Shown: positions 11,497 to 43,600 of the stretch, piece after piece | Numbering within the stretch: the stretch's first letter is position 1 | Layout of the letters: the number at the start of each line of letters is the position of its first letter | NCBI GenBank assembly: GCA_051294375.1 | Contig: CM119263.1 | Coordinates: 10,562,703 to 10,626,702, forward strand | Direction of reading: 5' to 3' | DNA: 64,000 nt | DNA from: Paraspadella gotoi | Taxonomy: Eukaryota; Animalia; Chaetognatha | Notes under the pieces: generated by a model | Seen by the model: only the letters and a program-made list of their open reading frames with translations | Databases searched by the model: none | What the model was told of the DNA's origin: nothing | Position numbers and translations under genes: made by a program

Positions 11497-13604
11497 ATGG
11501 AGGACCAAGACGACTCTCAGACTCGTCTTCGCGTCGGTCTCACCATCCTCGCCGGCGTCTATGACAAACAGTGCGTCCTCCACCGACTGCGCGGGACGCC
11601 GCATCTCGTGAAGCAAATCTTCGAACTGGCCACCAACGAAATACGGTGGAAGTGTCACATTAAAGTAGGCTGTCACTCTCTACTTGCAACAATTTTTTTT
11701 TAAGAATTATCTTCGCAGAACGAAAGAACATATTAATTGTATCCTATATAGCTTGCGAACGACGACATCGACCGTCAGAGACTCCAACTCGTGAGAGAAG
11801 CCCGACGCCAGTCGGAGTTGCCCAACGACGACGACTCCTTTCTCTTCTTCACTGAGGTTTTCGACAAGGAGGAATACGACGAGCCTCTCGAGTTTCCCGA
11901 TCCCAGCGACATTAACATTAACATGATGCCTTTCATACTGAAGAGTCGCTTCGAAGACTGTCAACTTCCCGACTACTTGAAACCCTACTGGCCTCTGATT
12001 CACTACTGCAGCTCGAGAGAGTCGGAGAAGTATCACGGAAGCTGGTTCTCCAAAAAAGAATCGGAATACGGAAAAGTTTGCTACTTAACGATACAGGAGG
12101 GCCAGGTCGAGGCGGGAACGTCGCAACGACGACCCGGGCTGCACACGGACTGTCCGGGAAAAGTCAAGATCAAGGGTTCAGGCGTCTCAGGTCTGTTGGA
12201 TATGCCAAAGACGGGTCGACGAATTTTTATAAAAATACCAATTAAAACAAAAACTTAGTATAAGACAATTCGTAGTGCGTCTTTTATTTTTATTTGCCAA
12301 TATTTGGACTAAAAATGAAATATGCACTTGTAAAATCCAGTACGAATTGCCTTATACTAAACTACTATATCCACTCTCCAGTGCATATGATGTCTCTTCA
12401 ACAACTAAAACAAAAGCGACCGACGACCATGACCTTTGGCCAATCTACCAGCCGATCGATTTAAGGAAGAGTTGGATAATGGTTACTTCTCTTAATTATT
12501 AATATTGCATAATTCTATGCAGGGGAGGCGAGATGGGTGGACCCCCTCGCCTCAGTGGAGCGGCCCGGGCCCCAGGGGGGCCCGGGAGGGCCCCTGAGAA
12601 GAGAGAAAAAAAGAAGGAAAGAGAAAAGGCAAAAAGTCGGTAATCGAAAACTAAAATTATGGAGAGGGGTGGGGGCCCGGCCAGGGGGTCAGTGGAGGGG
12701 CCCGCCATTTCTTTCGGCCCCCCTGATTCTATCTTCTGGACCATCATTCGCAGAATCGAGGACCAAAGGTTCGGGTTGTTCCCATCGCTACCTTTCTCAC
12801 CCGTGGGGATTCGGCGGAGCGCACCTCGTTCCTGCTCGAGACGAAGATAAAGAAGAACGATACAGCTATCGCTGGAGTCACGAGGTTGAAGAGAGAGAGA
12901 GAGAGAGAGGAGCAGAGAGAGAGAGAGAGGAGAGAGAGAGGAGAGAGAAGAGAAGAGAGAGAGTGAAACATAAAGACAGAAGTGGCGAAAGATTGGTTGA
13001 GAATACATCGAGAGAGAGAGAGAGAGAGAGCGAAACATACAGACAGAGAGAGAGAGAGAGAGAGAGAGAGAGAGAGAGAGAGAGAGAGAGAGAGAGAGAA
13101 GGAGCGAAACATACAGACAGAAGGGGGCGAAAGATCGGTGATTGAGGCGGTGTGAATATACCGCCACATGATCTTGGTTTTTTGAGATTATTACGACCCC
13201 TAAACTCCGCCCAACAGACTCGCATGGTGCTCCTGGGCGGCATCTACATGGCGTCTACGATCGACGATTCCTGCTCGGTCCACAACTGTAAGATCGTCCC
13301 TAACGCCCGCGGGGACGAGGTGATCGGCCGGCTGGGCAACGTGGAGCATCTACGTCCGCTGCTGCCAGAGCCGGTGTTGACCAAAGCCAATCGGATGTAC
13401 TGGTTGACCGACCGGACACCTCACGAATCGCTACCGCTAAAAGAGACGGAATATCGGCAGTTTTTCCGTCTGGTGACCAGCCAAGTGGGACTTTGGTACG
13501 AGGATCATTCCACCAAAAATCCGCGCGGCGTGATGCCCGACCCAAAAATCACGATGATTGTCAAGGGTTCGAAGTTTGATAAAGCCGGGGTCGTTGTCGT
13601 TTAA
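11497..13604 (+). CDS. Uncharacterised ~374-aa protein, putative 2-oxoglutarate/Fe(II)-dependent dioxygenase-like
   Basis: Exons 11497-11664, 11752-12190, 12754-12884 and 13218-13604 splice in frame (phases 0,1,0; 1125 nt). Motifs YLTIQEG..QRRPGLHTD (HxD 12142-12150), GGIYMAS, MYWLTDRTPHESLP (distal His 13422) and YRQFFRL (Arg 13455) fit the HxD...H...R pattern of the double-stranded beta-helix fold. The gene model is more certain than the functional call. Confidence 0.7.
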
Positions 13605-14459
13605 CTTGTGGAAGCTCTTTGTCCCTTCCGTCATTCCTTTCCCTATTCCTATTGGTTTGATTTGAATGATGGTATCATGTAGTATATGGTCCAGTATTGA
13701 TGACAAACAACGAAGCCTTTTGTGTTTAAGATTTTTTTAATTTTTTATTGATTTGTTTTGCGGATCTACGTATTTTACGGCTTCTTTGCTTTTGTTCCCG
13801 CCACCCCAACGCAACAGTCTTGTATCTCTTTCTGTTTTTCTTAACGAAAATCATTTGCTATACCTAACCGCCTTCTTTTTTTTTCTTTTAAAATTTTCAT
13901 TATTCTAAGTGCATGTGAATTATGTGGATGTTTTCTACATTAATTGAGCCGTTGAGTGTTTTTTGAAATTTAGAATAAAATGTTTTCTTTTAAATCTGAT
14001 CTTTCGTTCTTTCGCTATTTCAAAGTCATTGACATCTTTTAAGATTACCATCTCAAGATAGAAAATCACTTCTTTCTAGTGGTTAATTTGATTGACAGGC
14101 GATTCGAGTGACAAGATAACAAGTGTCAATGTTATTATAAAAATTCACAAGGGTTAATGATTTTACTAAATAATTTAAAAACTAGAAAATAATGACCAAC
14201 TTTTGATTTTATTTGACTTACATATTGTTCATTTCCGAATTTAAAGAAACATGGAACTCAATTAAGTAGAAAAACCCCAAATCATCTTTCAATTAATCTT
14301 TCACTTAAGGGAGTGGTCTTTTCATACAATTGAAACATTCTTTGAAATATTTTCCACTTCATTGATAGGGAAGCCAGGTACTCTGGGAGTGAATAAACGA
14401 GACTGTGAGAGAGTCTTGATTGAAAGCTTGCAGGGACCTGCTATGTCATTATCTTGTAA

Positions 14460-40600: not shown

Positions 40601-43600
40601 TCGCGTGGAAAGAGAGGATTTCGAATAATTTTATGCAAATAGGATTCAGTAGAATAACTTAAAGCACACCACGCTTAAGAATTTTTCTAATTGTTCTCTA
40701 AAGGTGGAAAAGCGTTGATTTATCGAACGAGCTTCAAACGACATACCGTGCTTAAGTTTTTTTTCGAGTTCATGACATTATTTTTAAAATATTTTTTAAA
40801 CCCGAACCAGATTTAGGGAGGATATTTATAAAAAAAATACATTCGTTGAAAGTTTTGAACTAAGGAACAAAAATATACTTTTTATTTCCCATTTTGAAGC
40901 AGACGCTTTAACGAATCTTATTTAATTTTAAATTGAATTCACCTTCATTTTTTTTAGATCGTCCGATCGTCTTTCGATGTCTCTCCTTTATTTAATTTCC
41001 TCTCTCTCTCTTCTCTCTCTCTCTCTCTCTCTCTTCTTCTCTCTCTCTCTCCTTCTCTCTCTCTCTCTCTTCTCTCTCTCTCTCTCTCTCTCTCTCTCTC
41101 TCTTTCTCTCTCTCTCTCTCTCTCTCTTTTTTTTTTAATTTCCTTGTGACATTTTGCGAATGGATAAAACTTTTTTACAATTCGAAATTTATTTTCAAGT
41201 TTTGAGGATTAAACAGACCTAATACCTAACCTAACCTAACCTTCCTAACATACTCAATAACTTAAAGAATGTAAATGCGTAGGTCATGCATGAGCATTCA
41301 ATGTATATAACTTTTTCCACTATTTACTTTCCATCAACTCAATATCTCTCATCTCCCTCTAATCTTCCTCCGAAGGAAATCCGGCCCGATTTCTGTCTTC
41401 TGACGAATAGAAAGTCATGTCTCTGTCTCTCTCTCTCTCTCTCTCTCTCTCTCTCTCTCTCTCTCTCTCTCTCTCTCTCTCTCTCTCTCTCTCTCTCTCT
41501 CTCTCTCTCTCTCTCTCTCATGACACATCGTGGATTGTCGTTCAAAGGCAGGACCTCCGACAGTTTGTCCTCGAATAGTTTTTTTGTCTGACGAGAGTTC
41601 GTTCGTTGGATCTTCGATTGTTTCTGCTCGAAAGTAGCCCAGCACAAACGCCGGTACACGGCCCCAACCCGGCAAAAAATTAAAAACTTAAACCGGTTTT
41701 TGTCCATGCGTTCCGGTTTCTTGAAAAGCTTTTTTGGTAGCAAAGAACTTGGATGCCATCGAATCGTTTTTTAAGTGTCCATCCGCCATTTATCCTGTTG
41801 TATCTTCTTCTTCGTCACAGAAATAGCGAAACTCACAAAGAATGTCTCCAAATTATCGGCGACACGTCGTCGACGAGGACGACGACGGGTCGACGCTGAT
41901 CCGAGTGCCGAGTCCAGGTAAGGCCCGACGATGAAAACGCTTGGGTGAGGAAGAGAGAACAAATGAATTTCTATCAATAGACGTATAATAAAATTGTATA
42001 TCTATGGATTTCCACGAATCGATAAATTTTGACATTGTTTCCTTTCCCGCATTGTTTTTAGAATTCACTCAAACTACTAAATCACTGTTGCTTCAACTTC
42101 GCTTTTGCGTCGTCACAAATCTAGCGTTTTTGCTTTACCTCACCAAAGGAGCATATGGTAAGTGAACTTGTCTCGAAGATATTGAACTGTGACAATAGTC
42201 TGAATCCGCAATTCAAAAACCCGTTTCGCAGCATCGACGATGGAAACTGCGGCGCCGGGTCCCGCAGTCTCCGCCTCCGTCGGCGCCGCACCGCAGTCGC
42301 CTTCTCTCGGGGGATACACTTATTCCAGCGTTTTTGAGTTCGAAAGAAACTTCAATGACGTTAGTTTTTGGTTTGTTTGTTTTTTTTTATTTATTTATTT
42401 TTTTATTTATTCATATATGTATTTAAGGTTGAAGCTCATCATTGGATGAAGAAAAATTGGCAAAAAAGTATTCTATATTCGGCTATTTATTTGATCGTTA
42501 TTTTTGGAGGACAAGAGCTCATGAAAAATCGGCCCAGACTAGAACTGAGGCCTCTCCTTACGATTTGGAACGTTCTCCTTGCGGTTTTCAGGCAAGTTGA
42601 CATCGCATCACAAAAAAATGGACTTAGTGATTTTTTAGCCATTGCATAACATCTTTTACAGCATAATGGGAGCCATCCGATCGTGGCCAGAGTTTATGTA
42701 CTTGATGACAACTCATGGATTTTATCACACTGTTTGTATTTCAACCATGTACAAAGGAATTTCAGGATTTTGGACCTATATGTTCGTAATGAGCAAGCCA
42801 ATAGAATTAGGTAAATAGAATGAAACGAGTCGACATTGTAATAATAAGATAACTACGACCTTAATTTTTTGAATTAGGTGACACCATATTTATCATTCTG
42901 AGGAAACAGCAATTAATATTTCTACATTGGTATCATCATATTACTGTTCTCATATATGTTTGGTACTCTTACATGGATTACACTGCTCCAGGACAATGGT
43001 TTCTTGTAATGAATTACACTGTGCATGCCCTCATGTATACATACTATGCCTTTAGGTCGATGAAATTCAAAATCTCAAAATGGGTAATTAAAACGACACT
43101 TTTTTTAAACAAATTACGTTCTGTTAGGTAAATTTTTATTTATCATCAGGTTATGATGACAATAACAACCTTACAACTAGTACAAATGGTTATCGGATGT
43201 GTAATAGCATTTTACACTTATATTCAAATGCGAAATGGTGTATTTTGCAATCAGGTCAGAATAATTGTCAGTTCAAATATTAAAAAGGAAATTTTAATTA
43301 AAATTAAAAATTTATTTACCAATTTCTTTTTCCAGACAAAAAGAAATCTCATATTCTGCTTGCTGTTGTATTTTTCATACTTTGTGTTATTTGCTATTTT
43401 TTTCTACACAACCTACATTTCAAAGAATGTGAAAGACAAAATCAAAACGACGAATTTCACAAAAATCTCCAGCGAAAACGAAAATGAATCATCTACTGAA
43501 TCAAGTGGAGACAACAACGTCAACTTCGGGACGAAAGAGTTAAAAAAAGACTAACGCTCAGATTCATAGCTTAATGATTTCTTAGAAATCACCTCCAACA

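What the first reader, a model, noticed from the sequence alone, without database searches (positions are those of the whole stretch)
11497..43554. Candidate animal polyketide/lipid biosynthetic gene cluster: dioxygenase-like gene + TE-less reducing PKS + SLC5 transporter, next to an elongase and an acyltransferase
Seen: a putative 2OG-Fe(II) oxygenase ends ~1.6 kb upstream of, and co-oriented with, an intron-containing KS-AT-DH-cMT-ER-KR-ACP PKS. An SLC5 transporter converges on the PKS 3' end, and the next locus is a DHHC acyltransferase hosting an ELOVL elongase. Established: fungal HR-PKS clusters pair TE-less synthases with tailoring oxygenases, transporters and trans-acting release enzymes, whereas animal PKS genes are usually described as unclustered. 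The SLC5A6 subgroup carries pantothenate, biotin and lipoate; SLC5A8/12 carry monocarboxylates. Inference: core-tailoring-transport cluster for an unknown oxidised, possibly methyl-branched polyketide, with the elongase possibly supplying or extending acyl chains. Chance adjacency in a compact genome remains possible, especially for DHHC and ELOVL.
Basis: partly seen in the sequence, partly recalled or inferred. Interest (0 to 1): 0.8.

Follow-up and report, generated by a model that had tools for sequence, protein, structure and literature searches.

The report
Animal polyketide synthase, likely unclustered
An invertebrate's genome carries an intact, expressed polyketide synthase of a family common in marine animals, next to an uncharacterised oxygenase-like gene whose relatives also occur in viruses; the two, and the transporter and lipid genes beyond them, are likely chance neighbours rather than a biosynthetic gene cluster.

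Summary
All five genes are real and arranged as described. The PKS (KS-AT-DH-MT-ER-KR-ACP, about 2,435 aa) and the oxygenase-like gene (374 aa) are spliced and transcribed as separate contigs in one RNA run. A homologue of the upstream gene folds like a 2OG-Fe(II) oxygenase, and the iron triad is kept.

The cluster reading is not supported. Lack of a thioesterase is the norm in this animal PKS family (41 of 42 full-length homologues end 38-53 aa after the ACP serine), and its characterised echinoderm members are reported as unclustered. The oxygenase family (phrog_8970) occurs as solitary genes in phages and giant viruses, multi-copy in cnidarians, and in Hydra, where no PKS was found. The SLC5, ankyrin-DHHC and nested ELOVL6 are ordinary genes in a mixed housekeeping neighbourhood (TMCC, SLC41, cyclin).

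Synteny and tissue co-expression, the decisive tests, could not be run, so a recruited PKS-oxygenase pair stays possible (about 12%). What remains of interest: the ketoreductase-intact branch of the sea-urchin pigment PKS family has no product known to my searches and keeps a well-conserved methyltransferase, and the oxygenase family is uncharacterised.

The parts
11497..13604 (+). Uncharacterised 2OG-Fe(II)-oxygenase-fold gene (phrog_8970 family), exons 11497-11664, 11752-12190, 12754-12884, 13218-13604; 374 aa; H187-x-D189...H315 triad and R330
14300..14566 (.). High-copy interspersed repeat between the oxygenase-like gene and the PKS
   Evidence: depth 4e4-3e5 and many loose ends; four further partial copies in the window
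15636..24468 (+). Type I iterative PKS, KS-AT-DH-MT-ER-KR-ACP, no TE; 13 modelled exons incl. one of 5.9 kb (16542-22443); start codon in an unplaced upstream exon
24875..30190 (-). SLC5 sodium:solute symporter of the SMVT/SMCT/NIS group, 568-570 aa, convergent on the PKS; last exon uncertain (stop at 24875 or 24976)
28046..28523 (.). 119-bp x 4 tandem array in an SLC5 intron that repeats a splice acceptor and the first codons of the next exon
34675..51513 (-). Ankyrin-repeat DHHC protein S-acyltransferase (ZDHHC13/17 type by architecture; subtype name recalled); ends approximate
42216..43554 (+). ELOVL6-like fatty acid elongase nested antisense in an intron of the DHHC gene; start uncertain

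Best explanation
This is an intact, transcribed animal polyketide synthase of the widespread thioesterase-less family that includes the sea-urchin pigment synthase, and its neighbours are likely unrelated genes placed next to it by chance in a gene-dense genome. The PKS likely works alone and iteratively: the AT loads malonyl-CoA (SAFH motif), the KS (GMMD type) extends the chain, and because the KR tyrosine, DH His/Asp and ER NADPH site are all kept, it would reduce the chain to a linear, lipid-like polyketide rather than the aromatic pigment made by the KR-dead echinoderm enzymes. C-methylation is possible but unproven (I put it at about 40%). Release would be by an unlinked enzyme or by spontaneous cyclisation. 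The upstream protein is likely an Fe(II)/2-oxoglutarate hydroxylase with a PKS-independent substrate, more probably a protein or nucleic acid than a polyketide (weak inference from its solitary occurrence in phages and giant viruses). Shown: gene structures, splicing, motifs, family placement, fold of a homologue. Inferred: every catalytic step, product, substrate, and the absence of functional linkage.
For: TE absence is general: 41 of 42 homologues with an ACP serine end 38-53 aa after it, the window protein 50 aa. The PKS nests among animal PKSs, with amphioxus, Owenia and Gigantopelta (support 0.98). KR Tyr kept here and in 57 of 65 homologues, lost with the ER site in the two sea-urchin Pks1 proteins. 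Echinoderm tailoring genes are 'not clustered' (PMC11414698). Oxygenase family: 346 hits, named ones all cnidarian; 26 of 73 hits on contigs over 3 kb share a contig length with another family member, i.e. multi-copy; three Hydra proteins although no type I PKS was found in Hydra (PMC4604110); 9 viral loci and 1 bacterial locus with no long PKS-like frame within 5-8 kb; matches phrog_8970 in 11 of 11 sequences tested. No contig length shared between 110 oxygenase and 69 animal-type PKS hits (weak). The two genes are separate RNA contigs with a high-copy repeat between them. The wider window mixes TMCC, SLC41-type and cyclin genes.
Against: An oxygenase-fold gene directly upstream and co-oriented is not a common neighbour by chance (my estimate: a few percent of genes), and both genes are transcribed in the same run. 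Animal clusters do exist (mussel bur-ox cluster, PMC11869996), and clusters can form by recruiting a gene from a family with other roles. The closest structural matches are small-molecule tailoring enzymes (EvdO2, AviO1, SnoK; Z 9.0-9.4), though tied within about 1 Z with prolyl and phytanoyl hydroxylases. No close relative's locus was available, so the absence of linkage was shown only for distant taxa and by proxy. In the one bacterial genome, a weak KS-like match (E 8e-4) lies about 23 kb from the oxygenase on the same contig, though the strong PKS hits lie on other contigs.
Confidence: 0.72

Rival explanations
1. A two-gene functional pair: this lineage recruited a member of the virus-shared oxygenase family to hydroxylate or desaturate the PKS product; SLC5, DHHC and ELOVL are bystanders.
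For: Adjacent, co-oriented, both intact and transcribed in one run; iron triad and Arg kept; best fold matches include natural-product tailoring oxygenases; echinoderm PKS products need oxidative tailoring (PMC11414698).
Against: Family is solitary in viruses, multi-copy in cnidarians and present in PKS-less Hydra; a high-copy repeat separates the genes and no contig joins them; no synteny shown.
Confidence: 0.15
2. A three-gene core-tailoring-transport cluster (oxygenase, PKS, SLC5), with the SLC5 importing pantothenate or a carboxylate precursor or moving the product.
For: SLC5 stop lies 0.4-0.5 kb from the PKS stop, convergent; it belongs to the SMVT/SMCT/NIS group.
Against: The exon tested cannot be assigned to SMVT versus SMCT; sodium symporters import rather than export (established knowledge); convergent close 3' ends are ordinary in compact genomes (own knowledge); SLC5 expression was not tested.
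Confidence: 0.08
3. The full five-gene cluster of the first reader, with ELOVL supplying or extending acyl chains and the DHHC enzyme acting as trans release or acyl transfer enzyme.
For: Both are acyl-CoA-using enzymes within 30 kb of the PKS.
Against: The elongase is a conserved ELOVL6-like protein (74-80% over one exon to named mollusc, annelid and nemertean proteins); the DHHC enzyme has the ankyrin-DHHC architecture of protein palmitoyltransferases, whose acceptors are protein cysteines (established knowledge).
Confidence: 0.02
4. The PKS is non-reducing in practice and makes an aromatic pigment precursor like SpPks1 (shared GMMD KS motif), with oxidative tailoring elsewhere.
For: Same domain order and GMMD motif as SpPks1.
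Against: KR Tyr/Asn, NADPH motifs of KR and ER and DH His/Asp are all intact here, whereas they are degenerate in sea-urchin Pks1.
Confidence: 0.1

Closest known systems
SpPks1 / CrPKS echinoderm pigment PKS family (PMC11414698)
   Same: Domain order KS-AT-DH-MT-ER-KR-ACP, no TE, GM(M/L)D motif in the KS, same ACP end; KS 55-56% to the sea-urchin 'probable polyketide synthase 1' proteins.
   Different: KR catalytic Tyr and ER site intact here (dead in SpPks1/CrPKS), so a reduced rather than aromatic product is predicted; nearest named relatives are amphioxus, Owenia and Gigantopelta enzymes, not the echinoderm pigment branch.
Fungal highly reducing PKS clusters (lovastatin type; recalled, LovB hit)
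   Same: Same seven-domain order, no TE, a C-methyltransferase domain, neighbouring oxygenase and transporter.
   Different: Animal lineage enzyme; no trans-acting hydrolase or carnitine-acyltransferase-like release gene found in the window; neighbours are housekeeping types; MT motif I reads ExGGRxGG rather than ExGAGTGG.
Mussel bur-ox NRPS gene cluster (PMC11869996)
   Same: A megasynthase with neighbouring tailoring-type genes in an animal genome.
   Different: bur-ox is supported by conserved synteny across molluscs, a matching compound and enzyme assays; none of these is available here.
phrog_8970, uncharacterised phage/giant-virus proteins of 2OG-Fe(II) oxygenase fold
   Same: Both window exons tested match it (9e-8, 6e-11); triad kept; viral structural matches such as Catovirus A0A1V0S8Z7 (3e-20).
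   Different: The animal gene has introns and an N-terminal helical motif shared with two giant-virus members but absent from the phage and bacterial members.

Membership tests
SpPks1-like animal type I PKS family | KS-AT-DH-MT-ER-KR-ACP order ending at the ACP, no TE | tested here: met
   stop 50 aa after the ACP serine
SpPks1-like animal type I PKS family | Groups with animal PKSs including sea-urchin Pks1 in a KS-AT tree | tested here: met
   (70 sequences, 854 columns, animal clade 0.94 against 4 bacterial outgroups); FAS, AFPK and Pks2/OlPKS references were not in the tree
SpPks1-like animal type I PKS family | GM(M/L)D motif near the KS cysteine | tested here: met
   GIGMMD; motif from PMC11414698
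Aromatic pigment PKS (SpPks1/CrPKS proper) | Inactive KR lacking the catalytic Tyr | tested here: not met
   QAAYVSAN keeps Tyr and Asn
Highly reducing PKS | Intact KR, DH and ER catalytic/cofactor motifs | tested here: met
   TGGLGGIG, Y-x3-N, DH His and Asp, HSAAGGVG; (sequence level only)
Highly reducing PKS | Catalytically active C-methyltransferase | tested here: inconclusive
   His-Glu dyad, Tyr and beta-2 Asp kept, best PDB match CurJ cMT 7e-22, 45-50% identity to distant animals; but motif I has Arg for the second Gly (51 of 65 homologues), and the domain is called pseudo-MT in CrPKS/SpPks1
2OG-Fe(II) oxygenase superfamily | Double-stranded beta-helix fold | tested here: met
   model of homologue P0005 (pLDDT 85): Z 9.4, rmsd 4.5, 175 aligned to EvdO2; 14 chains at Z 8 or more. 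The window's own spliced protein was not folded
2OG-Fe(II) oxygenase superfamily | HxD/E...H iron triad and 2OG-binding Arg | tested here: met
   H 117/119, D or E 118/119, H 117/119, R 113/119; all present in the window protein
2OG-Fe(II) oxygenase superfamily | Fe(II)/2OG-dependent turnover and substrate | not testable with these tools
   needs an assay
Biosynthetic gene cluster | Physical adjacency of core and tailoring-type genes | tested here: met
Biosynthetic gene cluster | Conserved linkage in related genomes | tested here: inconclusive
   no genome held; metagenome scan gave no close relative; proxy on distant taxa found 0 shared contigs
Biosynthetic gene cluster | Co-expression in the same cells | tested here: inconclusive
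   oxygenase and PKS both spliced in one run, contigs only, no tissue resolution; other three genes not shown
Biosynthetic gene cluster | Neighbouring enzyme acts on the core product | not testable with these tools
   needs expression and LC-MS
SLC5A6 (SMVT) orthologue | Groups with SMVT rather than SMCT or NIS | tested here: inconclusive
   one exon: 42.7 bits to SMVT, 41.3 to SMCT1, 32 to NIS

The most novel reading that the evidence does not exclude
An animal has recruited a member of an uncharacterised oxygenase family shared with phages and giant viruses as the tailoring enzyme of a reducing, C-methylating polyketide synthase, forming a small polyketide gene cluster. It would be one of very few animal polyketide clusters, would give the first substrate for the phrog_8970 family, and the first product for the ketoreductase-intact branch of the sea-urchin pigment PKS family.
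Probability: 0.12. Interest if true: 0.75.

Novelty: new member of a known kind. Interest (0 to 1): 0.3.

Why it matters
Products of most animal PKSs cannot be predicted (PMC11414698), and tailoring genes are hard to find because they are usually unlinked; a true PKS-oxygenase pair would make one pathway directly testable. On present evidence the locus offers two modest leads: an expressed, ketoreductase-intact relative of the sea-urchin pigment synthase with a strongly conserved methyltransferase, and an oxygenase family without a Pfam model that spans phages, giant viruses and animals.

Tried and rejected
Own genome: none held. Synteny by metagenome scan with the KS-AT part: 1 locus of 53 candidates, 30% identity, 67% GC, not a close relative. 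The nearest PKS relative (P0121, 59% overall, same intron position) lies on 7.2-7.5 kb contigs with no room for neighbours. Contig-length proxy for linkage: 0 shared among 110 and 69 hits, weak because different taxa fill the two top-120 lists. Profile search of the oxygenase family over 1.84 billion representatives: queued, never returned. F-box guess for the oxygenase's N-terminal helices: no Pfam F-box match in 119 members, no PDB sequence match, best Z 5.0 with unrelated helices; dropped. No listed run is on record as RNA; X1 was shown to be spliced only by laying it. Expression of SLC5, DHHC and ELOVL not tested. A hidden TE exon after the ACP: rejected, in-frame stop 25 codons into the last exon and homologues end there. 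Phylum of the host: not determined; close ELOVL relatives at 86-96% are all unnamed. Operon idea: the gap is far above the 250 bp used to define operons in one animal with operons (PMC12460157 passages). Earlier notes of this scan: nothing in three look-ups. The primary SpPks1 paper was not held. Searches for papers on this locus, this PKS branch or this oxygenase family found none.
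Full report
Setting. The window is from an intron-rich, AG-microsatellite-rich animal genome. No genome is held. The phylum was not determined: the elongase's nearest named relatives are annelid, mollusc and nemertean proteins, and its closest relatives (86-96% over one exon) are unnamed environmental or transcript records. 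Besides the five genes of the finding, the window holds exons of a TMCC protein, an SLC41/MgtE-type transporter and a cyclin (218 short frames scanned in those two calls), about eight genes in 64 kb with no shared theme.

The PKS. One 5.9-kb exon carries KS (part), AT, DH, MT, ER and the start of KR. A 13-exon model with GT-AG introns and one GC-AG intron gives one open frame of 2,435 aa ending at 24468; the start codon is in an unplaced upstream exon. Run X1 holds an 8,071-nt contig that matches 15634-15799 and 16540-22441 with exactly the spacing that splicing predicts, so the gene is transcribed (X1's RNA status is a guess of the tool, but its GT-AG joint at 11664/11752 is absent from DNA runs X8 and X9). 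All catalytic motifs are present: KS Cys-His-His with GIGMMD, AT GHSLG and SAFH (read as malonyl-type from established AT motifs), DH His and Asp, ER and KR NADPH motifs, KR Tyr-x3-Asn, ACP DSL.

Family. Of 6,758 hits to the KS-AT part, the best 120 were listed; apart from multi-module bacterial proteins at 28-41% identity they are single-module animal PKSs at 44-49% from hemichordates, amphioxus, echinoderms, stony corals, Owenia and Gigantopelta, plus one unnamed relative at 66%. I aligned 65 of the animal-type hits. In a KS-AT tree the window protein pairs with the unnamed relative (1.0) inside a group with amphioxus, Owenia and Gigantopelta (0.98), all within one animal clade that contains the sea-urchin 'probable polyketide synthase 1' proteins (no FAS, AFPK or Pks2 references were included). 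Of 42 homologues with an aligned ACP serine, 41 end 38-53 aa after it. PMC11414698 (parts 1-3 of 6 read) states that echinoderm PKSs lack a TE, that SpPks1 and CrPKS have a dead KR and a pseudo-MT and make aromatic pigment precursors, and that the tailoring genes are not clustered. So 'TE-less' is not a sign that a partner lies nearby. The KR tyrosine is kept in the window protein and 57 of 65 homologues, while the sea-urchin Pks1 proteins have lost it and the ER site: this enzyme belongs to the reducing majority, for which my searches found no characterised product.

The methyltransferase. It aligns over its whole core with active PKS C-methyltransferases (CurJ 7e-22), keeps the His-Glu pair (both in 56 of 65 homologues) and is 45-50% identical to the distant KR-intact bilaterian homologues compared, more than DH (23-34%) or KR (37-40%). 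Against activity: motif I has Arg in place of the second Gly (51 of 65), and the same motif stands in sea-urchin Pks1, whose product carries no C-methyl group per PMC11414698. Undecided.

The upstream gene. Four exons give 374 aa, with splicing seen or implied in X1. It has no Pfam match but 346 homologues; the named ones in the top 120 are all cnidarian. A model of the Hydractinia homologue (pLDDT 85) matches 2OG-Fe(II) oxygenases: Z 9.4, rmsd 4.5 over 175 residues at best, with antibiotic-tailoring, prolyl and phytanoyl hydroxylases nearly tied, so the fold names no substrate. The HxD/E...H triad and Arg are near invariant and present in the window protein. The family is phrog_8970 (11 of 11 sequences); it occurs in 9 viral loci and 1 bacterial locus, in 4 phage records, and the nearest ESM Atlas clusters are mostly viral. 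Reading the frames of those ten loci showed no PKS-sized gene within 5-8 kb (by inspection, not a family scan); three viral records have no KS match, and in the bacterium the strong KS hits lie on other contigs, one weak hit 23 kb away. In animals it is often multi-copy (26 of 73 hits share a contig length with another) and is present in Hydra, where PMC4604110 (abstract, section 19 and passages) found no type I PKS, with that paper's own caveat on incomplete genomes. The family therefore has a PKS-independent role, although local recruitment is not excluded.

The other three. The SLC5 is a full-length 568-570 aa member of the SMVT/SMCT/NIS group that the tested exon cannot assign further. The DHHC gene has N-terminal ankyrin exons and spans about 17 kb, the architecture of protein palmitoyltransferases of the ZDHHC13/17 type (name recalled). 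The elongase is ELOVL6-like, nested antisense. None shows a feature tying it to the PKS.

Linkage. The only accepted evidence for animal clusters such as bur-ox is conserved synteny plus chemistry (PMC11869996, passages). I could not test synteny: the metagenome scan returned no close relative, and the contig-length proxy, with 0 shared among 110 oxygenase and 69 animal-type PKS hits, compares mostly different taxa (lengths copied, bacterial rows and rows without a length left out). Oxygenase and PKS are separate contigs in X1, at least 1.4 kb apart with a high-copy repeat between them; contigs cannot show levels or tissues.

Verdict. Observation confirmed; cluster unsupported but not refuted. 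Best reading (0.72): a solitary, reducing, TE-less animal PKS with chance neighbours. A recruited PKS-oxygenase pair is the main rival (0.15; 0.12 with an active methyltransferase as in the novel case). PMC10764717 (passages and parts 2-3 of 7) confirms that PKSs occur in nearly all animal phyla, so a new copy is unsurprising. Supplements were not read; the trees and sequence sets there may already include close relatives of this PKS.

Noticed in passing
window 28046-28523: A 119-bp x 4 tandem array in an SLC5 intron copies the splice acceptor and first codons of the next exon; use of any of the three upstream acceptors would hit a stop after about 19 codons. May lower SLC5 output, or be an assembly matter.
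   Followed up: partly
window 14300-14566 (partial copies at 5651, 28512, 37520, 63876): Very high-copy short interspersed repeat, also abundant in the RNA run; type not determined.
   Followed up: partly
window about 20139-20840: The PKS methyltransferase domain is conserved across bilaterian members of the family, even in sea-urchin Pks1 where ER and KR have decayed, yet degenerate in stony corals (22-29%); a retained function is suggested despite the 'pseudo-MT' label.
   Followed up: partly
window 11497-11664; L001, L004: An N-terminal helical motif (LxGxxDxxSxLxxLxG...IW) is shared by animal and two giant-virus members of the oxygenase family and missing from phage and bacterial members; no known fold matched.
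   Followed up: yes
window 12161-12638: An X1 contig runs on unspliced into intron 2 of the oxygenase gene (depth 19 against 44-47 on the exons), suggesting retention or an alternative end that would lack the distal His.
   Followed up: no
window 58214-60490: A 759-aa acidic and proline-rich open frame with an internal duplication lies just upstream of cyclin exons; no Pfam match, probably the cyclin's long N-terminus.
   Followed up: no
L003/L005 (one viral contig): One viral contig carries two copies of the phrog_8970 oxygenase-fold gene about 14.5 kb apart.
   Followed up: no
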